Numbered from the stretch's first letter, positions 1 through 46,143 are shown. The stretch: DNA of 64,000 nt from an uncultured Verrucomicrobiota bacterium (GCA_964610105.1 CAZSUU010000011.1:21394-85393); one strand, 5' to 3'. Notes: a model not told the origin generated them from the letters alone. Translations and numbers: made by a program.

Positions 1-1275
1 GGCGAACGCCTCATCGGCCGGGCAGTTGAGCTTCGCCTCGCCCCTCACGGCCTTGAAGAAGTTCTCCAGGTGCGGCTGGTGGATGAACTTGTTCAGCACG
101 ATCGGGATGTCGAACATCTCGGGCAGCGGCGACTCGCGGATGTCGATCTTCTCGGCCTCTGTCGGCTGGGGCAAAGGCGCCGCCGGGGCGCGCAGGTAGT
201 TCTTCGCCCTCCACTCGTCCCACGGCGGCGCCGCGACCTCGCGGTACAACTTGGTCGTATTCGGGTTCTCCGACATCTTCAACGACCCGTCGGTGCCCAT
301 GAAGTACTCGAAGTAGCCTCCCCCGCCGCTGCTGGTGGTCTGCACCTGGTAGAGCGCGCGGGTCGTGCCCTCCGGCAGCGCGTACTCGTAGACTACCATC
401 GCGTTGTCGAACCAGTCGCGATTCTTGTAGTAATCGAGCCCGCCCGCCGCCAGCACCCGCTTCGGATAGGCGTCGAGGAACCAGTTGAAGATATCGATCT
501 GGTGGGCGCCAAGGTCGGAAAGCGGACCGCCCCCGAACTTCTTGAACCAGCGCCAGTTTCGAAACTGGTGCATGTTGTCGAAGCCGTACTTCGCCAATTG
601 TCCGGCCGGCATCTCGGCGCCCCTGGGGAAACCGGTATCGGGCTTCACCGCGCGATTCCACTGGGCGTTGGCGGCGGTCACGCGGCCGCAGATCCTGGCC
701 TCCCGGAGCAGGCGTTGGAACGCGAAGATGTAACGGGGATTGCTCCGGCGCTGGTGGCCGATCTGCAGCAGCCTGCCCGTTTCCCTCATCGTCCGGACCA
801 TCGAACGCGCTCCTTCCACGGTGTTCGACATCATCTTCTCGCAGTAGACATGGAGCCCGGCCTTGAGGCAGGTGTTCGTCACCGGCGCGTGCCAGACGTC
901 GGGCGTCGCAACGATCACGGCCCGCAGGTCCTTCTCCCCGGCCAGCAGGTCCTCGACATTCTCGTAGGCGTTGACCTTGGAACCGTTTGCCTTCAGGTAC
1001 CGCCGGCCATACTCGCGGCTGTAGTCCCAGATGTCCGCGATCGCCGCGAACTCGATGCCGGCGATTTTGAGGAGGGCGTCCGTCAGTGTGCGGCCCTGCT
1101 CGCCCCAACCCACCAGTGCGAAGCGGATCCGCGATGACGGCGATACGCGCCGGGCGTGCGCCCGCGGCAGTACCAGCCCCGCGCCCGCGGCGGCCGCGGC
1201 GCACACGAGAAACGAGCGGCGGGAGAGACCGCCGGAAGGGGAGGGGCCGTTGGGCGGATGAACAGGCGAATTCAA
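1..1275 (-). CDS. Gfo/Idh/MocA family oxidoreductase with a twin-arginine (SRRSFL) signal; 3' end runs off the window start
   Basis: The real minus-strand frame (codons ending at multiples of 3) is absent from the ORF track because it has no stop in the window. It translates to typical Gfo/Idh/MocA sequence (VIVATPDVWHAPVTNTCLKAGLHVYCEK, LQIGHQRRSNPRY). The start is uncertain: the nearest in-frame start is a TTG at ~1275. The listed ORF 11..1315 is an out-of-frame artefact. Confidence 0.75.
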   Translation of the reverse strand, partial: MNSPVHPPNGPSPSGGLSRRSFLVCAAAAAGAGLVLPRAHARRVSPSSRIRFALVGWGEQGRTLTDALLKIAGIEFAAIADIWDYSREYGRRYLKANGSKVNAYENVEDLLAGEKDLRAVIVATPDVWHAPVTNTCLKAGLHVYCEKMMSNTVEGARSMVRTMRETGRLLQIGHQRRSNPRYIFAFQRLLREARICGRVTAANAQWNRAVKPDTGFPRGAEMPAGQLAKYGFDNMHQFRNWRWFKKFGGGPLSDLGAHQIDIFNWFLDAYPKRVLAAGGLDYYKNRDWFDNAMVVYEYALPEGTTRALYQVQTTSSGGGGYFEYFMGTDGSLKMSENPNTTKLYREVAAPPWDEWRAKNYLRAPAAPLPQPTEAEKIDIRESPLPEMFDIPIVLNKFIHQPHLENFFKAVRGEAKLNCPADEAFA

Positions 1276-1630
1276 AGGCGGCGGAACAGTCTCTGAAGGC
1301 GGCGCCGTTGTACAAAGGAACGGACGGATTGGAGTGGAAGCGCCGAATGGTCCGATCGGGTCGGTTGCGGCTCGTCGCTTCAGGATCGGTTTCATATGCG
1401 CCACCCGTGGTGATGGGCCCTGGTCATTTGATCCCGCCCCCCGCGCGTCCCGCACGGCGAAGGGCGCCTTCAATAACATAAACGCATGCCGGTCGCGGGT
1501 CCTTCAGACCGTTCTCGTGTTTCCTGCTGCCACCGGGTTCGAGGGTGTCCACGGGCACGAATGCGATTCCGGGACTCTTGAAATCCCGCCAGGTCAGGGC
1601 ATGGTATGGGCAAAAAGCGGGAGATCCCTG

Positions 1631-2257
1631 ATGAAGATCACAGCGCATTCAGCGAGCGCAGCCCTGATGATGCTCGCCGGCGTCTCCGGCGGCGCGCCGA
1701 TGGACTTCGACTTCGCGGATCCCAAGGGCGTCAACGCCATCCACATCCTGCTCGATACCCCGCTCGAGCCGATCGCCGGCATGGCGGGCGGCGTGAGCGG
1801 GCAGGTGAAGTTCGATCCGGAGGCGCCTGCGAAAACGGCCGGGTATATCGAGGTGACGGTCGCCAACCTGGTGTTCGCCAACCCCATGATGACGCAGGTC
1901 TCGCGGGCGACGGACTGGCTGGATGTCGCGCAGTTCCCGAGGATCCGGTTCGACGTGCGCGAGGTGACCGATGTGAAGAAGCTGGACGATACGGGGCGGT
2001 ACACGGCCCGGGTGAAGGGCGACTTCCAGTGCCGCGGCGTTTCAAAGCCGCTGGAGGTCGACGTGGGCTTTCAGTATCTCCCCGGCCGCCTGGGCGATCG
2101 CGTGAAAGGCGCAAGCGGCGATCTGCTGGTGCTGAGGGCCGGATTCTCGGTTCGCCGGACCGACTTCGGGCTCAAGCTGGATCCCGATTTCCTGCACGTC
2201 GCCGACGAAGTCCAGATCCGATTCGGCATCGCCGGCCAGGCCGCAAGGAAGCCGTAA
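1631..2257 (+). CDS. YceI-like periplasmic (polyisoprenoid-binding) protein
   Basis: Internal start MKITAHSASAALMMLAGVSGG (signal peptide) inside ORF 1334..2257; ~209 aa, YceI-like beta-barrel sequence. Confidence 0.7.
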   Translation: MKITAHSASAALMMLAGVSGGAPMDFDFADPKGVNAIHILLDTPLEPIAGMAGGVSGQVKFDPEAPAKTAGYIEVTVANLVFANPMMTQVSRATDWLDVAQFPRIRFDVREVTDVKKLDDTGRYTARVKGDFQCRGVSKPLEVDVGFQYLPGRLGDRVKGASGDLLVLRAGFSVRRTDFGLKLDPDFLHVADEVQIRFGIAGQAARKP

Positions 2258-2427
2258 GGCGGCGAGGCGCCGGCGCGTCAGGGATGCTGCGCTCTACCCG
2301 CCGTCCGCCCGACCCATCGCGCGCGGAGAACGCGGGTATGATTGCCCGCGGTACGGGGGTGGAGGAATCCGCACCGCGCGCCATCCTGCGCGCGAGCGAG
2401 GACGGCACACGGGTGAGAGAATGAAGA

Positions 2428-10113: not shown

Positions 10114-11925
10114 ATGAAGCACTGGGTCACGACGCCCGCCGATGAGGCCGCCTCGGAGCGCCTCGCGGGCGAGCTTGGCTGCCCTTCCCCCTTTGCGCGC
10201 ATCCTGGTCGCACGCGGGCTGGGTCAGGCGTCGGAGGCCCGGCGGTTCCTCCATCCGGCCCTTCGCGACCTCGGCGATCCCTTCGAGCTGCCGGGCATGC
10301 GCGCGGCGGCCGAAGCCGTGTGGTCGGCGCTGGCGAACGGTCGTCCGACGGTCGTTTACGGCGACTATGACGTCGACGGCCTGACGGCCACCGCTCTGCT
10401 CGTCGGTGTGCTGCGGAAGCTCGGGGCGCAGGTGGAGGCGTTCCTTCCACACCGTACCGACGACGGCTATGGACTGGTCCCCGAAACGCTCGACAAGTGC
10501 GTCGAGCGACACCACCCCCGCTTCCTGGTCACCGTCGACTGCGGGACCAACGCCGCGGCGGCGGTCGAGCGCGCTCGGGCCCACGGCGTGGACGTCGTCA
10601 TCACCGATCATCACCAGCCCTCGGGTCCGCCCGCCCCCGCCGTCGCCGTGGTGAATCCCCGCCTCGGGGACCCGGCGTCGCCCTGGTTCGACCTCTCGGG
10701 CGTCGGCGTGGCGTTCAAACTCGCCCACGCCGTGGTGAAGATCGGCCTTGAGCACGGTTCCGCGGCGGCCCGGGGCCTCGCTTCGCGGCTGAAGGACCAC
10801 CTGGACCTGGTGGTGCTCGGAACCGTGGCCGACTGCGTGCCGCTGCGGGGGGAGAACCGCATCTACGTTCGCCATGGCCTGCCCCTGCTGGACCGGCCGG
10901 CGGGGGTGGGCCTCCGGGCCCTGCGGGAGGTGGCGGCGGTGCGCGGCGCGACCGACACCTATCACGTTGGCTTCCTCCTGGGTCCGCGCCTGAACGCCTC
11001 CGGCCGCCTGGGCACGGCCGAGAAGGCGCTGGAACTGCTGATGACCGACGATCCCGGCCGCGGCCGCCGCCTGGCGGAGGAACTCGACGCGGCCAACCGG
11101 GAGCGCCAGGCGATCGAGAAACGGATCTTCGAAGAGGCGCGGGCGCTGATCGAAGCGCGGCACGCGCCCGAGCTCGAACCGGGCATCGTGATCGCCCACG
11201 AGGGCTGGCATCCCGGCGTGATCGGCATCGTCGCCTCGCGCCTCTGCGGCTTCTACAGCCGGCCGTCGATCGTGATCGCCCTGGACGGCGACTGCGGGCG
11301 CGGGTCCTGCCGGAGCGTCGAGGCGGTCGATCTCGTGGCGTGCCTGCGCGACTGCGCGGCGGTGCTGCCCCGCTACGGCGGTCACAGCATGGCCGCCGGA
11401 CTGGATGTCGCGCGGGATCGGATTGACGAGCTGCGCAGGTTGTTCTTCGAGGCGATCGGGCGGCGGGTGACGCTGGCGGCGCTCCATCCGGTGCTGCATG
11501 TCGATGCCTGGATCGGATTGAAGGACGCCGACGATCGGCTCTTGAAGGCGATGGCGGCCCTGCGGCCCTGCGGCCAGGGCAATCCGGAACCGGTGTGGGC
11601 CGTTGCGGGCGTGCGCCTGCTGTACCCCCGGAAGGTGGGGGACAGGCACCTCAAGATGACCGTGGAACAGGGCGGGGTGCGACGCGACGCTATCGCGTTC
11701 GGCTTCGGCGACCGGCCGATCCCGGAGGGCGCCGCGGACGTGGCCTTCGAGCTGAAGGAAAACACCTGGAACGGCGCCACCAGCCTGCAGCTCCACGTGC
11801 GCGACATCCGCTCGTCCCCATCCAACTCGAACTCTAAGGCGGCGAGCCGCAACCCAACGGTCCTGGACGCTCAATGCTCTCACTCCAATCCGTGCGTTCC
11901 TCCGTGCAACCGCGCCGCCTTCTGA
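10114..11925 (+). CDS. recJ: single-stranded-DNA-specific exonuclease RecJ (C-terminal ~33 codons read into a repeat element)
   Basis: DHH/DHHA1 motifs (VVYGDYDVDGLTATALL, VTVDCGT, ITDHHQP, GGHSMAAG); the ORF tail SKAASRNPTVLDAQCSHSNPCVPPCNRAAF is encoded by repeat copy A. Confidence 0.85.
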   Translation: MKHWVTTPADEAASERLAGELGCPSPFARILVARGLGQASEARRFLHPALRDLGDPFELPGMRAAAEAVWSALANGRPTVVYGDYDVDGLTATALLVGVLRKLGAQVEAFLPHRTDDGYGLVPETLDKCVERHHPRFLVTVDCGTNAAAAVERARAHGVDVVITDHHQPSGPPAPAVAVVNPRLGDPASPWFDLSGVGVAFKLAHAVVKIGLEHGSAAARGLASRLKDHLDLVVLGTVADCVPLRGENRIYVRHGLPLLDRPAGVGLRALREVAAVRGATDTYHVGFLLGPRLNASGRLGTAEKALELLMTDDPGRGRRLAEELDAANRERQAIEKRIFEEARALIEARHAPELEPGIVIAHEGWHPGVIGIVASRLCGFYSRPSIVIALDGDCGRGSCRSVEAVDLVACLRDCAAVLPRYGGHSMAAGLDVARDRIDELRRLFFEAIGRRVTLAALHPVLHVDAWIGLKDADDRLLKAMAALRPCGQGNPEPVWAVAGVRLLYPRKVGDRHLKMTVEQGGVRRDAIAFGFGDRPIPEGAADVAFELKENTWNGATSLQLHVRDIRSSPSNSNSKAASRNPTVLDAQCSHSNPCVPPCNRAAF

Positions 11926-12011
11926 GATTGTTCCGCCGCCCTTCGCAACGGAGAACCGTCACGCAAAACATCATACGCATCTGCGTATCATGTCTGGGCG
12001 GAACAATCTGA
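11836..12011 (+). repeat. copy A of a ~175-bp nested-hairpin repeat family (novel, unclassified)
   Basis: Shares ~85% identity with 23550-23726 (+) and 45953-46130 (-). Conserved 5' block aaggcggcgagcCgcaacc, block cgttcctccgtgcaaccgcgccgc, a 13-16 bp inverted repeat agattgttccgcc/ggcggaacaatct enclosing an inner hairpin atacgcatctgcgtat. Confidence 0.8.
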
Positions 12012-12131
12012 CTCCAACCTGCAACTCCTCTGACTCTCACTCCCCATCACACTCTCCATCCTCATCGAAGCCGGAGTTGCCGGGTTTCAAACCTCTTCGT
12101 ATCGGACGCCGAGAAGATGTATATTCGTTTC

Positions 12132-15076: not shown

Positions 15077-15106
15077 GCGGCCATCCTAGCAGCCCGATCG
15101 CCAACT

Positions 15107-15192
15107 CTGAACACCGAACACCGAACACTGAACACTGAACACTGAACACTGAACACCGAACACTGAACACCGAACCCTGAACACCGAACCCC
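15107..15192. repeat. heptanucleotide tandem repeat (YGAACAC)x12
   Basis: ctgaaca/ccgaaca units repeated ~12 times, 31 bp upstream of the TauE start (minus) and ~150 bp upstream of the DUF1343 start (plus). Confidence 0.9.
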
Positions 15193-15343
15193 TCCTCGGA
15201 CTCGGGATTTCAAACTGCGAGCTTCAAATCCGGGCGCGCGCGCGTGTACGCTGTGCGGAGCCGCTGGACATCGGGGCCCGCCGGCGAGACGGTTCCGAAC
15301 ACCGGACGGGTGTGACCTCCCGCGGTCCGGGCATTGGAAGCGC

Positions 15344-19354: not shown

Positions 19355-19510
19355 ACGGGGAGCGCCGATTCCCAGGGTGTCGCGCCGGACTCGCGGGATC
19401 ATCTCCCCATGGGGAAGGCGGAGGCGCCTTGCTTCGCCGAAGGCTGCGCACGGCAGACGGCGAGGCCTTGACGGCGGGAGGATCGGGCGCATAATGCGAT
19501 CGTATATGTC

Positions 19511-19596
19511 GCTGGGGGAGCCCCGGGTGCGGGGCTGAGATCCGCCGTCGGGCGGAAACCCCTCGAACCTGTTTGGGTCATTCCAGCGAAGGGAAA
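19511..19596 (+). ncRNA. TPP (THI-box) riboswitch
   Basis: CUGAGA ... ACCCcuCGAACCUGuuuGGgucAUuCCAGCGaAGGGAA matches the THI-element consensus; located ~100 nt upstream of thiC. Confidence 0.8.
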
Positions 19597-19693
19597 GCGG
19601 CACGCGGGCGACCGCCGCCACGTCCGGAACGGAATGGCGGCGTTGGTTTTCGCCGGCATCCTCCCCGCTGACCGACCCCGAGGAACGCATATC

Positions 19694-21004
19694 ATGAATC
19701 ATTCGACGCAGATACGGGCCGCCCGCGCGGGGGGGACCACCGCGGCCATGCGCGCGGTGGCAGCGGACGAGGGATGTCCGGCGGAGTGGGTGCGCGACGG
19801 CGTGGCCCGGGGTCGGATCGTGATCCCGGCGAACGTGCACCGCCGGAACGTGCGCGCGATCGGCATCGGGCGCGACCTGCGAACGAAGGTAAACGCCAAC
19901 ATCGGCAACTCCGCACTGGCCGGAACGCCCGGCGACGAGCTGGAGAAGCTCGACTGCGCGGTGCGGCACGGAACCGACACGGTGATGGACCTCAGCACCG
20001 GCCCGTGCGCCGACGAGATACGGAAGGCCATCCTGGAGCGCTGCCCGGTGCCCGTGGGGACGGTGCCGATCTACCAGGCCGCGGCGCAGGTCGCCGAGCC
20101 CTCCGCCCTCACGCTCGACCTGCTTCTGCAGGTCATCGTGACCCAGGCGGAACAGGGAGTGGACTACATGACCCTGCACGCCGGTCTCCGCCGGGAACAC
20201 CTCGGCGCCGTGCGCCGCCGGCTGGCCGGCATTGTCAGCCGGGGCGGCGCGCTGCTCGCCGCGTGGATGGCGCACCACGGCCGCGAGAATCCGCTCTTCG
20301 AACATTTCGGCGAGGTCCTGGCGATCTGCCGCGAGCACGATGTGACGATATCGCTGGGCGACGGTCTGCGGCCGGGGTGCCTGGCCGACGGATCGGACGA
20401 GGCGCAGATGGCGGAGCTGCACACGCTGGGGGACCTGGTCCGGCGCTGCCGCGAGGCGGGCGTGCAGGCGATGGTCGAGGGGCCGGGCCATCTGCCGCTG
20501 GACCAGATCGAACGGAACATGCGCGCCGAGGAGGAGGAATGCGACGGGGCGCCGTTCTACGTGCTCGGCCCCGTGGTCACGGACTGTGCGCCCGGATACG
20601 ATCATATCACCTCCGCCATCGGCGGCGCGTGGGCGGCCTTCCACGGCGCGGCGATGCTCTGCTACGTCACCCCCATGGAGCACCTCGGCCTGCCGCGCCT
20701 CAACGATGTGCGCGAAGGCGTCATCGCGGCGCGCATCGCCGCTCATGCCGCGGACGTCGCGCGGGGACGGCCCGGGGCGCGCCGGCGGGACGATGCGATG
20801 TCGGCGGCGCGGGCGCGGCTGGACTGGGAGGGGCAGTTCGATCTGGCGCTGGATCCCGAGCGCGCGCGGGAATGGCGGACGGCGGACGCGCCGAAGTGCG
20901 GGCGCGGGGAGACCGGGGCGGAACCCGCCGCCTGCACCATGTGCGGTCCCCAGTTCTGCCCCTTCCGCATCAGCGCGGCATTGAAGGATCCCGATCCGCG
21001 CTGA
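19694..21004 (+). CDS. thiC: phosphomethylpyrimidine synthase ThiC
   Basis: VNANIGNS, TVMDLSTG, DYMTLHAG, ISLGDGLRPG, MVEGPGH, FYVLGPVVTD, LCYVTPMEHLGLP, C-terminal CTMCGPQFC cluster. Confidence 0.9.
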   Translation: MNHSTQIRAARAGGTTAAMRAVAADEGCPAEWVRDGVARGRIVIPANVHRRNVRAIGIGRDLRTKVNANIGNSALAGTPGDELEKLDCAVRHGTDTVMDLSTGPCADEIRKAILERCPVPVGTVPIYQAAAQVAEPSALTLDLLLQVIVTQAEQGVDYMTLHAGLRREHLGAVRRRLAGIVSRGGALLAAWMAHHGRENPLFEHFGEVLAICREHDVTISLGDGLRPGCLADGSDEAQMAELHTLGDLVRRCREAGVQAMVEGPGHLPLDQIERNMRAEEEECDGAPFYVLGPVVTDCAPGYDHITSAIGGAWAAFHGAAMLCYVTPMEHLGLPRLNDVREGVIAARIAAHAADVARGRPGARRRDDAMSAARARLDWEGQFDLALDPERAREWRTADAPKCGRGETGAEPAACTMCGPQFCPFRISAALKDPDPR

Positions 21005-21008
21005 GCCC

Positions 21009-21040
21009 AAGGCGGCGAGCCGCAATCCGACGGCCGGAGT
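21009..21040 (+). repeat. partial copy E of the repeat family (5' block only)
   Basis: aaggcggcgagccgcaatccgacggcc immediately after the thiC stop; matches the first ~30 bp of copies A/B. Confidence 0.4.
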
Positions 21041-23493: not shown

Positions 23494-23549
23494 GGCCGCC
23501 GCATCGTATCACGCGGGCGGCCGGATGCAATCGCCGCCAACTCATACCC

Positions 23550-23726
23550 AAGGCGGCGAGCGGCAACCGAAAGGCCTTGGCCGTTCAAGGCACTCCCCTC
23601 CATGCCCTCCGTTCCTCCGTGCAACCGCGCCGCTTTCGGGGGTTGTTCGGCCGCCCTTCGCAACGGCGAACCCTCACGAGGAACATCATACGCATCTGGG
23701 TGTCATGTCGCGGCGGGACAATCTGA
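23550..23726 (+). repeat. copy B of the ~175-bp repeat family (degenerate hairpins)
   Basis: ~85% identical to copy A; inner hairpin degraded (catacgcatctgggtgtcatg). Confidence 0.75.
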
Positions 23727-24026
23727 TGGCCGGATCGAAGGTCCGCGCCGGGGACCGATGCGCACCCCGGTGCCACGACGCCGGATCTCGCAGCGGCGAC
23801 GTGGGACTCGATCTCGCGGACTCCACGGAACGAGCCGCGAGGTGCGTGTCGACGCCGGGCATCGGTGGTACAAGGAAACGAAGCACTGGCCAGGACCGGC
23901 GCTGGCCAGTATGCAGTCGAAGGTCAATGGCATGAACAAGATCGTCCGGACATGGCGATGGCTGGCCTTGGCGGCCGGTCTCGAGGGCGCGGATCCCGAT
24001 CCTCAACAGGGCGGCGTGTGGACCGC

Positions 24027-24407: not shown

Positions 24408-25817
24408 ATGCGGATCGCGCATCGCAGCTTGTGGGCCGCGTTTCTGCCCGTCGCGTTTGTGGCGGCGGAGCGGCCGAACCTCATCCTGGTCACCGCCGAC
24501 GACATGGGGTTCCAGCTCGGCTGCTACGGGGACGCAGTGATGACGACGCCAAACATGGACCGGCTCGCGCGCGAGGGGCTCCGTTTCACTCGCGGCTACA
24601 TCACCCAGGCGTCGTGCAGCCCGTCGAGGAGCAGCATGCTCACGGGGCTCTACCCGCACCAGAACGGTCAGATCGGCCTGGCGCACCTGGGCTACTCGAT
24701 GCGACCGGACGTGCCGACGCTGCCCACCTTGCTGAAGAAAGCCGGCTACCGCACCGGCATCATCGGCAAGCTGCACGTGGCGCCGGAGAGCGCGTTTGAC
24801 TTCGACTACAAGGAAACCAACACGGCGGACACGCGCGACATGGCGAAGATTCGGGCGAAATGCGGGGCTTTCCTCGGCGGCGACGCGGCGAGACCGTACT
24901 TCCTCATGCTGAATTTCTTCGATCCCCACGACCCGCACATCCAGGACATCAACGGCAGCCCGAAGGCGAAGGTCGTCCCGGAGCAGGCGAAGGTCTATCC
25001 GTTCATGGGCACCAACTCGCCGGCGATCCGGCAACGGGTGGCGGAGTTCGCCACCTGTGTCAACCGCGTGGACGAGGGGGTGGGGGTGCTCCTGGACGTC
25101 CTGCGCGAGCGCGGTCTGCACACCAACACGGTCATCGTCGTGCTGGGCGACAACGGTCCGCCATTGCAGCGCGCGAAGGTGACCTCGTTCGAGCCGGGGG
25201 TAAACGTGCCGTTCATCGCCTGGGCGCCCGGCCGGATCGCGCCCCGCGTGGGCGACGAGATGGTGTGCTCCATCGACCTGCTGCCGACCTTCCTGGAACT
25301 GGCGGGCGCGGCGCCGCCGCCCGGTCTGCCCGGCCGCTCGCTGCTGTCACTATTCCGCGGCGCGCCGCCGCAGTGGCGAGAGTACCTGGCGACGGAGTAC
25401 ACGACCCACGAGCCCCGCAACCTGAATCCGCAGCGGAGCATTCGCGACAAGCACTACAAGCTCACCCTCACGCTACTCAAGGATCCCGCCTTCCAGTGGC
25501 CCGCGGGCATCGCGATCGCGGAGTACCGCAGGATCCAGCGCCGGGCCGCGACGGGCGAGTACATCGAGCTCTATGACGTGCGGACCGATCCGTATGAGTT
25601 CAGGAATCTCGCCGGCGCGCCGGAACACAAGGACGCGCAGGAACGTTTGCTTCGTGAGTTGAAACGATGGCGGGAGGAGACCCGCGATCCGCTGCTCGAC
25701 CCCGCCGCGCTGCAGGCGATGGTGCTGAAGGAGAAGGACGCCCCGCCCACGCCCGTGCCGGCGTGGAAGAGGGCGCGGGCGGCGGAGGCCGGGCGTGCGA
25801 AGGAGGCGGCAAAATGA
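24408..25817 (+). CDS. sulfatase (formylglycine-dependent arylsulfatase family)
   Basis: CSPSRSSMLTG (C-x-P-x-R), signal peptide, LILVTADDMG, GKLHV. Confidence 0.85.
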   Translation: MRIAHRSLWAAFLPVAFVAAERPNLILVTADDMGFQLGCYGDAVMTTPNMDRLAREGLRFTRGYITQASCSPSRSSMLTGLYPHQNGQIGLAHLGYSMRPDVPTLPTLLKKAGYRTGIIGKLHVAPESAFDFDYKETNTADTRDMAKIRAKCGAFLGGDAARPYFLMLNFFDPHDPHIQDINGSPKAKVVPEQAKVYPFMGTNSPAIRQRVAEFATCVNRVDEGVGVLLDVLRERGLHTNTVIVVLGDNGPPLQRAKVTSFEPGVNVPFIAWAPGRIAPRVGDEMVCSIDLLPTFLELAGAAPPPGLPGRSLLSLFRGAPPQWREYLATEYTTHEPRNLNPQRSIRDKHYKLTLTLLKDPAFQWPAGIAIAEYRRIQRRAATGEYIELYDVRTDPYEFRNLAGAPEHKDAQERLLRELKRWREETRDPLLDPAALQAMVLKEKDAPPTPVPAWKRARAAEAGRAKEAAK

Positions 25818-26300
25818 CACCTCCCGCGCTCGGATGCGCCGTCGGAGCAACGCTCGCATGGGCCGCCGCGCACGCCGTACGAGGAAAGCTGCGGCGTGCC
25901 GCTGCTTATCGCCGCGCCCGGCAAGGCCCACGGGACCGGCTGCCGGCGCGTCGTGGAATACGTGGACTTCTATCCGACGCTGGTGGATCTCTGCGGCCTG
26001 CCCGTGCGCGGCGACCTGGAAGGCCGCAGTCTGCGCCCGCTGATCGAGGATCTCGCCGCACCCTGGGACCATGCCGCGTTCAGCATCAACGCCCGCCATG
26101 ACCAGCCCGTCAATCTCGCCGTCAGCACCGACCGGTTCCGCTACATCGAATACGCCGACGCGAACAAGCCCGCCGAGTTGTATGACATCCAAGCCGACCC
26201 GCGCGAGTGGACGAATCTCGCCGGCGAAGCCAGGCATGCCGAGGCGCTGGCGGCGATGCGAAAGCTGGCGGCGGAACACCGACGGGAGTTCTGGAGGTAG
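25818..26300 (+). pseudogene. C-terminal fragment of a second sulfatase, in frame directly after the upstream sulfatase stop
   Basis: TPYEESCGVPLLIAAPGK...DFYPTLVDLCGLP...DPREWTNLA are sulfatase C-terminal motifs; no N-terminal/catalytic part. Confidence 0.55.
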
Positions 26301-31158: not shown

Positions 31159-31514
31159 GCCGCAGAGAAGCGGAGAGAAGTCCATGGGTGTGAATCATGT
31201 ATGCGCGATCGTCTCGCTGGCCCTGGCCGTCTCGGCGTCGGCCGGTCCGTTCCCGCCGCTCCGATCGCCCCTCGACACCAACGACGCCGCACGGGGGCGT
31301 TCAGGCACCTCCGACCGGGAGCGTCAATGAAGGACATCCCCAAGGCGTCAAGCCGCGACCCCATGGTCCTGGTCGCTCCACGCTCTCACTCCATTCCTTC
31401 CCTTCCCTCGTGCGATGGCGCCGCCTTTTCATTGCGTCTCCCGTGGAAGTGGGCTATCGCTTTGGTGCGTTTCATGCACGTGACCGAGATCTCCTTTGCG
31501 GGTTTGGGAAGAGG

Positions 31515-32672
31515 ATGACCGCGCCCCTCGATCCGAGGGCGGCGGGCCGCCGCGTTGCTCTTGTCGCCGCCACGCTGGCGGTGGCAGGGGCCGGGCTTTG
31601 CGCCGAGGCTGATCCTCGACCCTCACTTCGCGAGGCGGCCGGCGAGCGTTTCGCGATCGGCGTCGGCGTGAGCGACCGCATCCCGGAACGTCCGGAGGAT
31701 TGGCCGTTGCTCACGACCCAGTTCAACAGCGTGACACCGGAGAACTGCCTCAAGCCCGATCCGGTTCAGGCGGCGGAAGGACAGTTCAACTTCTCGCGCG
31801 GGGACGCGTTTGTTGACTTCGCCGCGTCGAACCGCCTGGACATCGTCGGCCACTGCCTGGTCTGGGCCAAGGATGATCGAACCCCACCCTGGTTCTTTCG
31901 CGACGGCACGAACACCGCCGGCCGCGAAGTCCTTCTCCGGCGGATGAAGACGCACATCGAGACGGTGGCCGGGCGCTATCGCGGGCGGATCGCCATGTGG
32001 GACGTGGTCAATGAGGCGCTGGACGACGGCACCAACTTCCTCCGCCCTTCGGGTTGGAGCGCGGCGTGCGGCGAGGAGTTCATCGTCAAGGCTTTCGAGT
32101 ATGCGCACGCCGTGGACCCGCGGGCACTGCTCATCTACAACGATTACAACAATGAGCTGCCCGACAAGCGCCCCAAGCTGATCCGGCTCGTGCGCGCGCT
32201 GCGCGAGAAGGGCGCGCCGATTCACGCGGTCGGCCTGCAGGGGCACTATGAAATCGACCGGCTGCCGTTGGCGGACATCGAAGCCACGCTCGTCGCCCTG
32301 CGCGAGATGAACGTGAAGGTGGTGTTCTCCGAGCTGGATATCGACGTCATCCCCCGCTCCCGCTGGTGGGCGGATGGCGGCCGGCATCGCGGCGAACTCG
32401 CGCAGCTCGACCCCTACCGCGACGGCTGCCCGCCGGAGGTTCTGCAACGGCAGGCCGAGTTGTACGCGCGGCTCTTCCGCCTTCTTGGCCGGCACGCGGA
32501 TGTCATCGCTCGCGTCACCTTCTGGAACCTGCACGACGGCCAGAGCTGGCTGAACGACTTTCCCTGGAGGCGGGTGAATCACCCGCTGCTGTTCGATCGT
32601 CTGGGAGAGCCGAAGCCCGCGTTCGAGGCGGTGATCGAGGCGCTGCTGGAAGGACCTGCGCCGCCGCGGTAG
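31515..32672 (+). CDS. GH10 endo-1,4-beta-xylanase
   Basis: TPENCLKP, WDVVNEAL, FSELDIDV, TFWNLHD classic GH10 motifs; signal peptide MTAPLDPRAAGRRVALVAATLAVAGA. Confidence 0.8.
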   Translation: MTAPLDPRAAGRRVALVAATLAVAGAGLCAEADPRPSLREAAGERFAIGVGVSDRIPERPEDWPLLTTQFNSVTPENCLKPDPVQAAEGQFNFSRGDAFVDFAASNRLDIVGHCLVWAKDDRTPPWFFRDGTNTAGREVLLRRMKTHIETVAGRYRGRIAMWDVVNEALDDGTNFLRPSGWSAACGEEFIVKAFEYAHAVDPRALLIYNDYNNELPDKRPKLIRLVRALREKGAPIHAVGLQGHYEIDRLPLADIEATLVALREMNVKVVFSELDIDVIPRSRWWADGGRHRGELAQLDPYRDGCPPEVLQRQAELYARLFRLLGRHADVIARVTFWNLHDGQSWLNDFPWRRVNHPLLFDRLGEPKPAFEAVIEALLEGPAPPR

Positions 32673-33067: not shown

Positions 33068-36000
33068 TCAATTCTTGTCTCTGAGCAGCCGGATGCCGAA
33101 GCCCGATGGTTTTACGTGATGGCTGTCACCCAGGTATCTGGACCAGTTGTGGACACTGCTCAGCCATCCCCTATCTGAAGATTGAGGTGTGGAGCTCCAC
33201 ATGTAGCAGCTTCCCGTCAAATTGTGAAAGCTTCCATCGCACCAGCGGGCGCCGTTGGGGAGGCAGTTGAAACCGGTCTTGTTGTTCAATTCCGGACGCT
33301 CGCTGATGAGCAATTCCTTTTCCCAGACATTTCCTGATTTATCTGTGATCCGGTACTGCCAGCCAATTCTTCCCGCCACCGATTTGCCGAGCTTGTTTTC
33401 CTTTTCCTTTTCTTGATTGTAGTCGCCCTTCCATTCGGGGTATTGGGTTCCGTCAAAGTTATATCCATTGCGTACCAGGTACCGGCGAAAGGCCAGTTGT
33501 TCCTCAACCGAGGGCACATGCCAGCCTTTGGGCGCAATCCTCGGATGGCTGGCGGCCCACCAGTTGTACAGCAATCCGTTCTTTCCATTTTCGGGTTTGT
33601 TTTCGTTGTAGCACCATGCCGGGGACGAAAGAGCTTGCCATTCCTTGTCGTCAGTGACATTGGGAATGGGCGTGCCGTCGCTGTACTTGGTGGTTTTGAG
33701 ACCTGTGGTGGTCCACACGAAGTCGCCGATCTTCACCGTCTGGTAGACATTCCCGTCGGCATCCGTGACGGTACCCGCGCAGTCGATCATCTCGATGGCG
33801 ATTTCGCCGGTGTCCTGACCGGGCACATGGATCTGATAGTCAAGATAGCCCTCTTTGGTGACCGTGATCACATCCCTGCGATAGTCAATGTAGCCCTTGT
33901 CGGTGACCGTCTGGGCTACCGGCGCAAGACCGACCAGAACCATGCTGAAATTCCCGTTTGCATCCGTCGTCGTGGATTGGCCGGTGCTTTCCACCTTCAC
34001 ACAGGCTCCAGCCAGGCCGGCCCCGGATGAGTCCTTCACTGTTCCGCGGATGCTTGAGGCCTGCGCAGATTCATCCGCGTCACGCAGCAGCCGGATGCAG
34101 AACCCCGATCGGTCGTGATGCTGGTTGTTGCCGTATTTGGCGAACCGGCTGTGAATGCTGCTCATGTGCGAGCCTTCACCCTCACCCTTGGTCGTGCTCC
34201 ACCAGTAAACGCTCTTGCCCATCGCATGGAAACTTCCGTCGTTCCAGCGGCTGCCGGCAGGCAGCGCCGTAAAACCGGCGCGGTTGTTGTTGGTCAGGTC
34301 GTGGCCGGCGTTGCCAGGAGTCGGATCGGAATCCCAGTCGGTCTTGGCCGTCATCGCTTTGGCGACCTTGTTGCCTTCTTTGGTTCCGTCGTGGTTGTAT
34401 CCGTTGGCAATCAGGTAGTCCCGCAGCGCCATTTGTTCCTCATGCGTCGGCACCTTCCACCGCTTGGGAGCGATTCTGTCGGAACTGGCGGCCCACCAGT
34501 TATAGAGTGCTCCGTATTTCTCTCCATTGGCGGGTCTATTTTCGTAATAGCAGAAGCCCGGACTGGCCAGCGCTTTCCATTCGGCGTCACCGGTCACATG
34601 AGGAATCGGCGTGCCGTCATTGTATTTTGTTGTCCTGAGGTTTTCGACGGTCCACACCTGATTGCCAATCTTCACTGTGTGATAGATGTTCCCATCGGCA
34701 TCCTGCACGGTTTCCGCAGAGGTGGCGCGACCGGTTGCGTCCGGGTCCTCCGCAGCGAGGTTGAGCGTCGTTGCGTTGAAGAACTCGATGCACTGGGCGA
34801 GTTTGGGCGTGGATTCAAACCAGTCGTGCGAGTATTCCAGACCGATCATCGTGGGCTTGATGCCCTGGCGGTGCAGCTCGCGGAAGAACTCCTCGGATTT
34901 GCCAATGCCCGTTCCCCACGGCACGTCGTGGCCGTTGCGGCCCGGTTCGTGCAGGTCGTGCATCTGCACGGTGATCACGCGGTCCCTCAGCACGCGCACG
35001 GCGTCGATCGGATCGATGCCCGAGCGCAGCCAGTAACCGAGGTCGGGTGCGGCGCCGATCCGCTTGCTCCGGCCCTCGCAAGCTTTGAGCACACCTTCGG
35101 GACGCCAGTAAAGCGGGGAGATGTCCTTGCCGTGATTGTGAATGGCCACGTTGATGCCGTATTCGTTTGCGAATGTGTCGAGCAGATCGAGGTGCTCCGG
35201 TTTGGGCTCACAGATGAAGGTTTCGAAGCCCATCTTGCGTCCGAACTCAAATAGCCTGCGACACCCGGCGTCGTCCGTGGGAATGTCCTGCGCGTAGTAG
35301 GTCAGCATCCGCACGCCGCCGGATTCCATTTTGAACCGGATCTGGCGCAACTCGTCGTCCGTGAGGTTCTGATCGAAGTTCTTCGGGATGTCCTTGCTGA
35401 CCGGCTGCAGGAAGCTCAGTCCGCCGATGTAAGGCAGGCCAAGCTCGGCGGTCTTCTCGATGGTCTCAAAGAAGGTGAACTTGTGAAACGTGTAGGCCTC
35501 CACGCCGAGCCTCCAACCAAGCTTCTCCTGCGCGAGGATGGCCGGCGAGAGCTTGGCGCTCGGTGTGGTGGGCGCAGGCAGGTCGCCGAGAACGAACTGG
35601 GACGCGTCGAGGTAGAACTGGAGCATCTTCGGATTCCAGAAGACCTGCGGGTTGTGCCCCATCGTTGCGTAGAAAACCCGCCCGCGGCCGTAGGTGCGCA
35701 CCCAGGCGAGCGCATAGTCCTTGTCCGGCCGCAGGACGGGATCGCCCGGCTTGATGCCCGACAGATCGGTCTTCACCGTATCCATGCTCAGCAGCACGCG
35801 AACGCGCTGGCGGGAGTAGGGTTCGTGAAATCGGAAGAACTCCTCGGTCATCTCGAAACCCTCGCCGGCAAACGCCCGGTTGAGGGGATGATCCGCGTCG
35901 TCAATCTTGATCCAGGCCCGTTCGTTGGCGTCTCGGTGAAATGCGCCGCGCGTCCCGATCATGTGACCGAACTCCGGCCAATCTTCAACCGGCGGCCATT

Positions 36001-44741: not shown

Positions 44742-44758
44742 GTGCAGAACGGATGGCG

Positions 44759-44858
44759 GGCGGAACCATCTCAGAAGGTGGCGCGGTTGCACGGAGGAAC
44801 GGAAAGAACGCAGTCGGCGCATTGCGCGACCAACACCCTTGGGTTGCAGCTCGCCGCC
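44759..44858 (-). repeat. partial copy D of the repeat family (5' half, reverse orientation)
   Basis: Reverse complement matches cgttcctccgtgcaaccgcgcc...tctgagatggttccgcc and aggcggcgagctgcaaccc; lacks the hairpin half; abuts the vapC stop. Confidence 0.65.
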
Positions 44859-45212
44859 TCAGGCGTCAAGGATCGGGATGCCGTACGAATGAAAGACGGC
44901 GTCGCGCGTCACCACGATCAGGTTCTCGACCTCGGCCTGCGCGATCAGCATGCGGTCGAACGGATCGGCGTGATGCGGCGGCAAGCCCTGCGCGCGCTCG
45001 GCGTGCTCCCGGCGGATGTCGAGCAGCCCGATGCCGTCTGATTGCAGGACATCGATATAGCCGGGTGGAAGTCGGAGCTTGTTCCTCGCCATCTTCAGAC
45101 CGATTTCCCAGATGGAAGCGACACTCAAATGCGCCTGGTTGCGTCCGTCGGAGATGGCGGACCGGGCGGCGGGCGACAAGCGGCCGGGATCGTCGATCCA
45201 CCAGATCGCCAC
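44859..45212 (-). CDS. PIN-domain VapC-like toxin (canonical start missing)
   Basis: SVASIWEIGLK, HHADPFDRMLIAQA, LIVVTRD PIN motifs. The called GTG start omits the conserved N-terminal LLLDSH strand, which is encoded upstream in frame without an ATG/GTG/TTG. Confidence 0.55.
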   Translation of the reverse strand: MAIWWIDDPGRLSPAARSAISDGRNQAHLSVASIWEIGLKMARNKLRLPPGYIDVLQSDGIGLLDIRREHAERAQGLPPHHADPFDRMLIAQAEVENLIVVTRDAVFHSYGIPILDA

Positions 45213-45517
45213 GTGCGAATCCAGGAGGAGTTTCGCGGCCTTCCGCCCTCGGCGACCTTCGTCCGCCTGGGTTTCGGAAGCGGGTAGAGCGGGGCCGAGG
45301 CCGCCCCGGCGAGTTCATCCCCCTGCCAGCAATCGGGCGTCTCGATGACCCTTCCCTTCAGTTGTCCGCCTTTTCGATGGTGGACCGGCGCCGCATAGGG
45401 CGTCATCAGAACGACCGGTTTTCCGGCCTTTCCGATGATCACGGTCTCGCCGGCCAGCACATCGTCCACGAGTCGGGACAGGTGTGTTTTGGCCTGCTGG
45501 ATGTTCACCTGTTTCAC
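45125..45517 (-). CDS. Phd/YefM-family antitoxin (ORF reads ~90 nt into the toxin gene)
   Basis: MKQVNIQQAKTHLSRLVDDVLAGETVIIGKAGKPVVLMTPY typical of Phd/YefM antitoxins; GTG start; 130-aa ORF is longer than the usual ~80 aa because no stop precedes the toxin. Confidence 0.5.
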   Translation of the reverse strand: MKQVNIQQAKTHLSRLVDDVLAGETVIIGKAGKPVVLMTPYAAPVHHRKGGQLKGRVIETPDCWQGDELAGAASAPLYPLPKPRRTKVAEGGRPRNSSWIRTWRSGGSTIPAACRPPPGPPSPTDATRRI

Positions 45518-45589: not shown

Positions 45590-45799
45590 GTATTGAAAGA
45601 CCGGCGACTCTGTCCGATGCTCGAGAGGGTCGGAGGGCGACCGCCGATCGGGGCCGCGGAACTCGATGTCGCGCTGTTCTTCCTCTCGGGCCGCCCGAAC
45701 AACAGCATCGCCGAGTTCGCGCTGGACTACACCACCGACCCGGAGCCGCCGCTGGAGGGCACCTGGCAGCCCCTCGAAATCCAGCGCTTCTCGGCGTAA
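45590..45799 (+). pseudogene. C-terminal remnant of a discoidin-domain protein (glycoside-hydrolase C-terminus-like)
   Basis: SIAEFALDYTTDPEPPLEGTWQPLEIQRFSA resembles the C-termini of discoidin domains of GHs in this window (e.g. SVAEFDVVPE); no upstream coding continuity. Confidence 0.3.
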
Positions 45800-45952
45800 G
45801 TGGCCACCCTGCAGCGGACGCCGGAAGGACACCTGCGGGCGGCGGGCTGGCGGCCGCCTTGGTGCGGCGGTTCCGGCGGAATGCGTAAGCGATGCGATCA
45901 TTGGATTCGCGCAAATCCCCGGTGCGTCGCAGGACCGCCGGGGATTTCGTCT

Positions 45953-46130
45953 AGATTGTTCCGCCGTAAGATGACACGCAAATGCGTATGATGTTTTGGG
46001 TTCGGGTTCTCGGTTGCGATGGGCGACGGAACAATCTACCTGTAAGGCGATGCTACGGAACGGAAGAACGGGCGGACAAGAGGCAACGCATCGAGCGGCC
46101 AGGGCCGTTGGGTTGCGGCTTGCCGCCTTA
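45953..46130 (-). repeat. copy C of the ~175-bp repeat family (reverse orientation, both hairpins retained)
   Basis: agattgttccgcc ... ggcgacggaacaatct arms, inner acgcaaatgcgt hairpin, ccgttgggttgcggcttgccgcctt = reverse complement of the 5' block. Confidence 0.75.
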
Positions 46131-46143
46131 GGCCGGAGTAAAC

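What the first reader, a model, noticed from the sequence alone, without database searches (positions are those of the whole stretch)
11836..12011. Novel ~175-bp nested-hairpin repeat family with at least 5 copies in 64 kb
Three full copies (A 11836-12011 +, B 23550-23726 +, C 45953-46130 -) and two partial copies (D 44759-44858 -, E 21009-21040 +) share ~85% identity. Conserved parts are a 5' block aaggcggcgagCcgcaacc (itself a mini-hairpin gcggc-ga-gccgc), a block cgttcctccgtgcaaccgcgccgc, and a 13-16 bp inverted repeat (agattgttccgcc / ggcggaacaatct) enclosing a second hairpin (atacgca-tc-tgcgtat). Copy C keeps both stems through compensatory-like changes (acgca-aa-tgcgt), whereas B has lost them. 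All copies are intergenic and sit at gene ends. Reading frames are not conserved between orientations, so this is a DNA/RNA element, not a protein. It could be a REP/MITE-like mobile element, a terminator/insulator family, or a family of structured small RNAs.
Basis: seen in the sequence. Interest (0 to 1): 0.75.

Follow-up and report, generated by a model that had tools for sequence, protein, structure and literature searches.

The report
Lineage-specific two-hairpin interspersed DNA repeat
A real ~177-bp non-coding repeat made of two hairpin-forming halves is scattered between genes of an uncultured PVC-group (probably Kiritimatiellia) bacterium; it behaves like a small selfish mobile DNA element rather than a conserved structured RNA, which is ordinary for bacterial genomes.

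Summary
The repeat is real. The window holds 7 copies, not 5. Three are full (A 11833-12009+, B 23547-23724+, C 46132-45953-). Two are short forms (D 44864-44753-, F 1384-1274-). One is module 1 only (G 31339-31429+), and E (21006-21035+) is a weak 5' fragment. Two more full copies lie at unlinked loci outside the window (L107, L108).

The element has two parts. Module 1 is about 88 nt, closed by AAGGCGGCG/CGCCGCCTT. Module 2 is about 85 nt, closed by a 13-nt inverted repeat around a 10-bp inner hairpin.

- All copies are intergenic.
- Copy A supplies the last 29 codons and the stop of recJ; D supplies the vapC stop.
- A 96%-identical relative lacks copy A.
- About 45 kb from three 72-77% relatives holds no copy.
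- There are no matches in Rfam, plasmids, phages or IMG/VR.
- The stems show no covariation and decay in diverged copies.
- No target-site duplication and no transposase were found.

Best reading: a new family of MITE/REP-BIME-like interspersed elements. The mobilising enzyme is unknown. Interest is low to moderate.

The parts
11833..12009 (+). Copy A, full element. Module 1 is 11833-11921 (AAGGCGGCG...CGCCGCCTT). Module 2 is 11925-12009 (AGATTGTTCCGCC...GGCGGAACAATCT), with an inner hairpin ATGATACGCA/TGCGTATCAT.
   Evidence: nhmmer E=6e-65. Fold energy -66 kcal/mol, z=-4.6. The right edge at 12009 coincides with the end of the first 31-mer of Logan contig L095. The recJ ORF 10114-11925 reads through module 1.
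23547..23724 (+). Copy B, full element with weakened stems. It lies in the divergent intergenic region between a Wzy_C-family gene (-) and a small ORF plus sulfatase gene (+).
   Evidence: nhmmer E=3e-62. Module 2 fold z is only -1.4 and 0.0 on the two strands. Logan contig L106 starts at 23608, inside module 1. Flanking genes from Pfam.
45953..46132 (-). Copy C, full element. Its 5' end lies 11 nt upstream of the ATG of the DUF5703 gene (46144).
   Evidence: nhmmer E=3e-60. Sequence. Logan contigs L100, L101, L103 and L104 all start at 46103, 30-31 nt inside the 5' end.
44753..44864 (-). Copy D, short form (module 1 plus the left arm of module 2). Its first bases, CCTGAGG, contain the TGA stop (44861-44859) of the PIN/vapC ORF. 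It ends 11 nt from the GH106 stop codon.
   Evidence: nhmmer E=4e-22 and 3.6e-26. Sequence. Pfam PIN match. Logan contigs L097 and L098 end at 44809, inside the copy.
1274..1384 (-). It lies between an unannotated (-) ORF and the YceI gene (+).
   Evidence: nhmmer E=4e-17. Inverted repeat I2. Sequence.
31339..31429 (+). It lies between two GH10 genes. The downstream gene starts at 31515 according to the gene call in L097.
   Evidence: nhmmer E=2.5e-14. Direct-repeat family D3 at 80%. Sequence. Gene call.
21006..21035 (+). Copy E, a 5' fragment (CCCAAGGCGGCGAGCCGCAATCCGACGGCC) starting 2 nt after the thiC stop. It may be a badly decayed module 1 reaching about 21100.
   Evidence: nhmmer E=0.002-0.015, over 30 nt only. 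Only 48-57% identity when forced into a full-length alignment.

Best explanation
This is a lineage-restricted family of small, non-coding, non-autonomous interspersed DNA elements. In kind it resembles MITEs or REP/BIME-type repeats.

A full unit is about 177 bp and consists of two adjacent hairpin-forming modules:
- Module 1 is closed by the 9-bp inverted repeat AAGGCGGCG/CGCCGCCTT.
- Module 2 is closed by the 13-bp inverted repeat AGATTGTTCCGCC/GGCGGAACAATCT and contains a 10-bp inner palindrome.

The GGCGGCG-type motif recurs four times in alternating orientation. The family occurs as a mosaic of full units, short forms (module 1 plus the left arm of module 2) and module 1 alone.

Inferred mechanism: copies were spread to unlinked intergenic sites by a trans-acting enzyme that recognises the terminal hairpins or inverted repeats. 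After insertion they decay neutrally. Because no target-site duplication is visible and the left edge (CCY-AAGG) is conserved, a single-strand (HUH/Y1, RAYT- or IS200/IS605-like) mechanism or a recombinational one is as likely as a DDE transposase.

Shown side effects: insertions at gene ends rewrite 3' ends. The recJ ORF takes its last 29 codons and its stop from copy A. The vapC ORF takes its stop from copy D.
For: Shown:
- There are 7 copies in 64 kb, on both strands, with unrelated flanks.
- Two further full copies sit at unlinked loci. H is at L107:3000-3177, between the biotin ligase and pantothenate kinase genes. I is at L108:10033-10221, between PPK2 and PPK1. Copy I occurs in the same sequencing runs that carry window-identical proteins.
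- No two window copies share a 25-mer or a 31-mer. Even so, k=31 assemblies of the same strain break inside copies A, B, C and D. Copy H shares A's terminal 31-mer by my reading of the alignment. So closer copies exist elsewhere.
- All 9 copies are intergenic.
- A relative with 96% identical RecJ lacks copy A at the orthologous site.
- About 45 kb from three 72-77% relatives and 12 kb from the 96% and 79% relatives contain no copy.
- Stems show no covariation and decay with divergence. Fold z-scores for module 1 are unremarkable.
- Subfamilies are visible in the centre of module 1: A, H, G and F against D and I.
- Nothing matched in Rfam, plasmids or phages, or IMG/VR.

Precedent: Coxiella QMITE2 (150-190 bp) likewise overlaps gene 3' ends and donates 33 C-terminal residues to EnhC (PMC5896051).
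Against: - No target-site duplication is visible at any of the 5 full copies.
- The whole element has no shared terminal inverted repeat. Only each module has its own.
- No transposase, integrase or RAYT gene was found among the window genes tested. The rest of the genome could not be read.
- The single filled-versus-empty comparison lies in a labile (CTCCAA)n tract, so the junctions are not clean.
- Transposition itself was not observed.
- Copy number in the genome is only inferred.
Confidence: 0.62

Rival explanations
1. A family of structured RNAs. These could be small RNAs, or cis-acting 3'/5'-UTR elements that stabilise mRNA or are processed by RNases. The nested hairpins would be the functional part.
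For: - Copies A and C fold far better than shuffles in module 2 (z from -4.4 to -6.2).
- In the three co-directional intergenic regions (A, G, H) the element is always in the sense orientation.
- By my hand count from the pair tables, most one-sided transitions in the module 2 stems keep G-U pairing on the element's own strand, about 7-8 against 2.
- MITE-derived small RNAs are known in Coxiella (PMC5896051).
Against: - There are 0 compensatory pairs in module 1 across 8 copies, and the consensus energy is only -13 kcal/mol.
- In module 2, 109 of 500 shuffles reach the observed pairing level.
- Stems are broken in copy I and weakened in copy B.
- No promoter-like or terminator-like site is shared by the copies.
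- There is no Rfam match.
- The orientation and wobble biases are not significant (p about 0.06-0.13).
Confidence: 0.13
2. A host-serving REP-like DNA or protein-binding site, for example a nucleoid-protein or gyrase site, an insulator or a terminator. It would be kept at gene ends for function rather than by selfish spread.
For: - Positions are strictly intergenic and at gene ends.
- Internal blocks are conserved irrespective of pairing, for example AACATCATACGCAT in 4 of 5 full copies and CGTTCCTCCGTGCAAC.
- The inner 10-bp palindrome resembles an operator.
Against: - The element is absent from the orthologous recJ site in a 96% relative and from all sampled 72-79% relatives. No site is therefore conserved across species.
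- Copies are truncated and decaying.
- There is no U-tract for termination in the sense orientation.
Confidence: 0.12
3. Relics of larger mobile elements: solo ends of an insertion sequence, attachment or recombination sites, or cassette borders. Copies C and D would then mark the ends of an inserted phd/vapC toxin-antitoxin cassette.
For: - C and D flank the phd/vapC pair and a small ORF in direct orientation.
- The vapC stop lies inside D, as is typical of cassette recombination sites.
Against: - The other 7 copies flank ordinary housekeeping or glycan-degradation genes and occur singly, on both strands.
- No integrase or recombinase was found in the window genes tested.
- The integron core sites RYYYAAC/GTTRRRY are absent from the element ends (read from the sequence).
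Confidence: 0.08

Closest known systems
Bacterial MITEs, e.g. Coxiella burnetii QMITE2 (150-190 bp; PMC5896051)
   Same: - Small, non-coding and multi-copy.
- Inverted repeats that form stable hairpins.
- Intergenic, with overlaps onto gene 3' ends.
- Can donate C-terminal residues and a stop codon.
- Occurs as full and shorter variants.
- Restricted to one lineage.
   Different: - No target-site duplications were detected here.
- The inverted repeats close each of two modules separately, not the whole element.
- No parent insertion sequence is known.
REP / REPIN / BIME elements mobilised by RAYT (Y1) transposases (PMC3337134, PMC3116915, PMC3733652)
   Same: - GC-rich short palindromic motif reused in alternating orientation.
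- Hairpin doublets.
- Mosaic, modular variants, as in BIMEs.
- No target-site duplication.
- Strictly extragenic.
   Different: - No GTAG or CGTC tag next to the palindrome.
- The basic palindrome is only 5 bp (GCGGC-GA-GCCGC).
- The arms of module 2 are about 59 nt apart.
- No RAYT gene was seen, and the genome could not be read to look for one.
Modular interspersed repeats such as pneumococcal BOX (boxA-boxB-boxC) or enterobacterial ERIC (from my own knowledge)
   Same: - About 100-200 bp and built from modules that occur in different combinations.
- Imperfect palindromes.
- Found between genes of the same or different operons.
   Different: - No sequence similarity.
- A different phylum.
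- Transcription and function were not tested here.

Membership tests
MITE | Small (under about 500 bp), multi-copy, no coding capacity | tested here: met
   Units are 88-180 bp. There are 7 copies in the window plus 2 elsewhere. Indels break all frames between copies.
MITE | Terminal inverted repeats at the two ends of the element | tested here: inconclusive
   Each module has its own inverted repeat (9 bp and 13 bp). The 5' end of the full element (AAGGCGGCGAG) does not match the reverse complement of its 3' end (AGATTGTTCC). The short form does end in CCGCCGCCCTT, an approximate inverted repeat of its 5' end.
MITE | Target-site duplication flanking each copy | tested here: not met
   The flanks of A, B, C, H and I, and of D, F and G, show no direct repeat next to the ends.
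MITE | Autonomous insertion sequence with the same termini in the genome | not testable with these tools
   Only 64 kb plus about 25 kb of the genome could be read. No transposase Pfam hit was found in the window genes tested.
MITE / mobile DNA in general | Presence/absence polymorphism at orthologous sites | tested here: met
   Copy A is absent downstream of recJ in L090 and L091, whose RecJ is 96% identical. The junction lies in a variable (CTCCAA)n tract, so it is not clean. Only one site could be tested.
REP / REPIN (RAYT-associated) | 20-40 nt imperfect palindrome carrying a GTAG or CGTC tag | tested here: not met
   The ends read CCTAAGG..., CCCAAGG... or CCTGAGG.... The reverse complement gives CTTAG or CTCAG, not GTAG. 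A CGTC is present in A but not in B or C. Definition taken from PMC3733652.
REP / REPIN (RAYT-associated) | Two inverted REPs forming a hairpin doublet | tested here: inconclusive
   Module 2 is a hairpin with 13-nt arms, but they are about 59 nt apart. Module 1 pairs only at its 9 terminal base pairs.
REP / REPIN (RAYT-associated) | Cognate RAYT (Y1_Tnp) gene flanked by the repeats | not testable with these tools
   There is none in the window. A weak Y1_Tnp hit exists in a 1084-aa protein of a 77% relative (L099), but that locus has no repeat copy.
Integron attC / gene cassette | R''/R' core sites (RYYYAAC...GTTRRRY), uniform orientation in an array, nearby integrase | tested here: not met
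   No core sites are present at the ends. Copies lie on both strands about 1-12 kb apart, between housekeeping genes. No integrase was found in the window genes tested.
Any Rfam RNA family | Score at or above the family gathering threshold | tested here: not met
   The only window hit is the TPP riboswitch at 19504-19612. The permissive scan of copy A gives only chance-level hits (15 bits or less against thresholds of 40-50).
Structured RNA (generic) | Covariation supporting the helices | tested here: not met
   Module 1 has 0 compensatory pairs in 8 copies. Module 2 has 1 doubtful pair in 5 copies, and its pairing level is reached by 109 of 500 shuffles. Power is low with so few copies.

The most novel reading that the evidence does not exclude
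The element could be a hairpin-ended, strand-specific single-strand-DNA transposon derivative, a PATE/REPIN analogue mobilised by an HUH/Y1 enzyme, in a phylum (Kiritimatiellota) where none has been described.

Points compatible with this:
- There is no target-site duplication.
- The element as a whole has no terminal inverted repeat.
- There is a conserved trinucleotide (CCY) at the left junction.
- A small subterminal hairpin (GCGGC-GA-GCCGC) lies at the left end and a large hairpin at the right end.
- There is a weak tendency for stem mutations to keep G-T/G-U pairing on one strand only.

A variant of this reading is that the transcribed element also acts as an RNA.
Probability: 0.15. Interest if true: 0.45.

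Novelty: new member of a known kind. Interest (0 to 1): 0.28.

Why it matters
- It adds a repeat family, with defined borders and variants, for a poorly studied and mostly uncultured PVC-group lineage.
- It explains why short-read assemblies of this organism fragment at these points.
- It shows that such elements rewrite gene 3' ends there (the recJ tail and the vapC stop).
- It offers a strain-typing marker.
- It does not open a new biological question unless a new kind of mobilising enzyme or an RNA role is found.

Tried and rejected
No hit extends beyond the pattern. That scan was wasted.
2. A metagenome-contig scan with CGTTCCTYYGTRCAACSGCGCC returned 2 chance hits only.
3. A concatenated six-frame translation of all copies, used as a protein query, found nothing at E<=1.
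4. Two IMG/VR pattern scans and blastn against plasmids and phages found nothing.
5. Rfam found nothing at gathering or permissive thresholds.
7. The 116-kb NCBI contig that carries the window (P0121) could not be fetched. Only Logan contigs were returned.

Rejected ideas:
- Integron attC sites: no core sites, mixed orientation, no integrase.
- Intrinsic terminators: no U-tract in the sense orientation.
- A coding mini-gene: frames are broken by indels and GC3 is low.
- Local segmental duplication: flanks are unrelated and copies lie at unlinked loci.
- Assembly artefact: independent Logan and ENA assemblies reproduce the copies and their flanks.
- The motif GTAAGGCGGCGAGG at the YceI stop (2254-2267): no similarity beyond the motif.

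Full report
**Observation**

The sequences at the stated coordinates are as described. A profile built from the three full copies and searched with nhmmer recovers these copies:

| Copy | Coordinates | E-value |
|---|---|---|
| A | 11829-12028 (+) | 6e-65 |
| B | 23541-23743 (+) | 3e-62 |
| C | 46138-45936 (-) | 3e-60 |
| D | 44868-44754 (-) | 4e-22 |
| E | 21005-21035 (+) | 2e-3 |

The repeat finder independently reports the same families (D3, D5, D7, I1-I6). The 13-mer arm AGATTGTTCCGCC occurs 10 times at up to 2 mismatches, against 1.7 expected.

It is 60-79% in the first half, 74-82% in the second, and 48-57% for E.

**Anatomy**

The element has two parts.

- Module 1 (11833-11921 in copy A) runs from (CCY)AAGGCGGCGAGCCGCAACC to CGTTCCTCCGTGCAACCGCGCCGCCTT. 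Its only consistent pairing is the 9-bp terminal inverted repeat, plus the small GCGGC-GA-GCCGC hairpin.
- Module 2 (11925-12009) is closed by the 13-bp inverted repeat AGATTGTTCCGCC/GGCGGAACAATCT. It holds a 10-bp inner palindrome, ATGATACGCA/TGCGTATCAT.
- D and F share a short form: module 1 plus the left arm of module 2, ending near CCGCCGCCCTT.
- G is module 1 alone, and E is a 30-nt 5' fragment.
- A GGCGGCG-type motif recurs four times in alternating orientation. In this the mosaic resembles BIME or BOX-type repeats.

The element's own strand is C-rich, and its GC content (51-62%) is below that of the window (67%).

**Context**

RecJ homologues point to the PVC group, probably Kiritimatiellia. 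This rests on source names attached to homologues of about 50% identity. The window is a typical glycan-degradation region with sulfatases and glycoside hydrolases (GH10, GH43, GH95, GH106).

Every copy is intergenic.

- Copy A lies inside the 3' end of the recJ ORF. Codons 575-603 (KAASRNPTVLDAQCSHSNPCVPPCNRAAF) and the TGA at 11923-11925 come from module 1. Most RecJ homologues are about 570 aa and cover 94% of the query.
- The PIN/vapC ORF ends with the TGA inside D's first bases.
- E starts 2 nt after the thiC stop.
- C ends 11 nt before the DUF5703 start codon.
- C and D flank a phd/vapC pair in direct orientation.

**Copies outside the window**

Both large DNA scans failed. The first pattern was too short, and the second found only chance hits. 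Two indirect routes worked.

The first route used assembly breakpoints. Window-identical proteins occur in Logan (k=31) assemblies of many runs, and those contigs break inside the copies:

- L095 starts at 11979. Its first 31-mer ends exactly at 12009, the last base of ...AACAATCT.
- L097 and L098 end at 44809, inside D.
- L100, L101, L103 and L104 start at 46103, 30-31 nt inside C's 5' end.
- L106 starts at 23608, inside B.

No two window copies share even a 25-mer. The breaks therefore need closer copies elsewhere.

The second route used a translation. The open frame across copy A was searched against 1.84 billion representative proteins, and two spurious ORFs were found that contain the whole element. 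Their contigs give two new full copies:

- Copy H is at L107:3000-3177, between the biotin ligase and pantothenate kinase genes.
- Copy I is at L108:10033-10221, between PPK2 and the convergent PPK1.

Copy I occurs in the same runs (ERR4519286, ERR4524289, ERR14964770) that hold the window strain. By my reading of the alignment, H contains A's terminal 31-mer exactly.

**Distribution and mobility**

A relative whose RecJ is 96% identical (L090, L091) has no element after recJ. It carries about 100 nt of (CTCCAA)n-like sequence there instead. This is a presence/absence difference, but in a labile tract, so the junctions are not clean.

No copy is found in about 45 kb from three 72-77% relatives (L099, L117, L118), in the 9.7-kb contig of the 96% relative, or in the 2.4-kb contig of the 79% relative. 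At the window's density, about 5 copies would be expected in 45 kb.

Subfamilies are visible in the centre of module 1. A, H, G and F share ctctcactccaatcc, while D and I share gcgccgactgcgttct.

No target-site duplication is seen at any copy. The left junction is conserved as CCY before AAGG in 8 of 9 copies.

**Structure tests**

Copy A folds well on both strands: -66 kcal/mol (z=-4.6) and -85.7 kcal/mol (z=-4.4).

Copy by copy, module 1 is unremarkable, with z from -2.6 to +0.3. Module 2 is strong in A and C but not in B.

Across copies the results are:

- Module 1, 6 then 8 copies: 0-1 compensatory pairs, consensus energy -12 to -18 kcal/mol, and a positive (penalising) covariation term.
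- Module 2, 5 copies: 88% of cells are paired, but 109 of 500 shuffles do as well. There is one doubtful two-sided change. Copy I has 3 mismatches and 2 wobbles in the 13-bp stem.

So the stems are inherited sequence that decays, not selected structure. B keeps 12 of 13 outer pairs if wobble pairs are allowed.

By my count from the pair tables, one-sided transitions in the module 2 stems mostly keep wobble pairing on the element's own strand, about 7-8 against 2. This is suggestive at best (p about 0.06-0.09).

No promoter-like or terminator-like site is shared by the copies.

**Comparison with known elements**

Nothing matched in Rfam, PLSDB plasmids, INPHARED phages or IMG/VR.

In kind it is closest to bacterial MITEs. 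One example is Coxiella QMITE2 (150-190 bp), which overlaps gene 3' ends and gives EnhC 33 C-terminal residues (PMC5896051). It is also close to the REP/REPIN/BIME elements mobilised by RAYT transposases (PMC3337134, PMC3733652).

Membership in either class is not established.

- For a MITE, the target-site duplication is missing and the parent insertion sequence is unknown.
- For REP/REPIN, the GTAG/CGTC tag is missing and no RAYT could be sought.

Integron attC sites, terminators, a mini-gene, segmental duplication and assembly artefact were considered and rejected.

**Verdict**

This is a real family that matches nothing in the libraries searched, but an ordinary kind of object: a lineage-specific, modular, hairpin-forming interspersed repeat. 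It is most likely non-autonomous mobile DNA (confidence about 0.6), and the mobilising enzyme is unknown.

The RNA reading is not excluded (about 0.13) but has no positive support. The most novel reading still open is a single-strand (HUH/Y1-type) hairpin transposon derivative in Kiritimatiellota (about 0.15).

Noticed in passing
window 19504-19612 (+): A TPP (THI-box) riboswitch, 66.9 bits, lies directly upstream of the thiC gene (19634-21004). It is the only Rfam hit in the window.
   Followed up: no
window 15089-15193: A tandem array of about 14 heptamers (AACAC[T/C]G) lies in the intergenic region between the TauE (-) and NamZ (+) genes. Logan contig L095 also ends inside it, at 15136.
   Followed up: partly
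window 44859-45517 (-): A phd/vapC toxin-antitoxin pair is flanked by copies C and D in direct orientation. The PIN ORF has no canonical start upstream of the conserved LLLDSH motif, and its Pfam match starts at profile position 9. The Phd ORF runs 130 aa into it. The module may be decaying or frameshifted. A small (+) ORF (about 45591-45803) and a hairpin (about 45913-45946) lie between it and C.
   Followed up: partly
window 11800-11835 and 12010-12070; L090 2440-2560: The recJ 3' end is a variable (CTCCAA)n-like low-complexity tract. In the 96% relative it encodes an S/N/P-rich tail (RecJ is 601 aa there, against about 570 aa in most homologues). About 60 nt of it are missing in the window strain.
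   Followed up: partly
window 47042-47072 and 47115-47145: Two inverted runs of GATTGCC-like heptamers (31 nt, 84% complementary, 42 nt apart) lie inside the DUF5703/F5_F8_type_C gene (46144-48945).
   Followed up: no
window 24408-26300: A full sulfatase gene (24408-25817) is followed by an ORF that matches only the sulfatase C-terminal domain (25896-26300, SGSH_C). A 53-nt repeat at 74% identity links 25565-25617 with 26174-26226. This is probably a duplicated or truncated paralogue.
   Followed up: no
window 31184-31331 (+): A short ORF with a signal-peptide-like start (MGVNHVCAIVSLALAVSASAG...) ends 8 nt before copy G. The GH10 gene proper starts at 31515 with its own signal peptide. The ORF could be a remnant of an older 5' end separated by the insertion.
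   Followed up: no
window 2254-2267 (+): GTAAGGCGGCGAGG overlaps the TAA stop of the YceI gene. It matches the element's first 14 nt at 2 mismatches, with no similarity beyond that, so it is likely chance or a tiny relic.
   Followed up: partly
L099 5881-9135: In a 77% relative, a 1084-aa Alpha-L-AF_C protein carries a weak precomputed Y1_Tnp (PF01797) hit. No repeat copy is present in that locus.
   Followed up: no
window 33579-33778 and 34518-34717: A 200-nt internal direct repeat (70% identity) lies within the 1142-aa ThuA / Fib_succ_major gene. It corresponds to the two Fib_succ_major domains.
   Followed up: no
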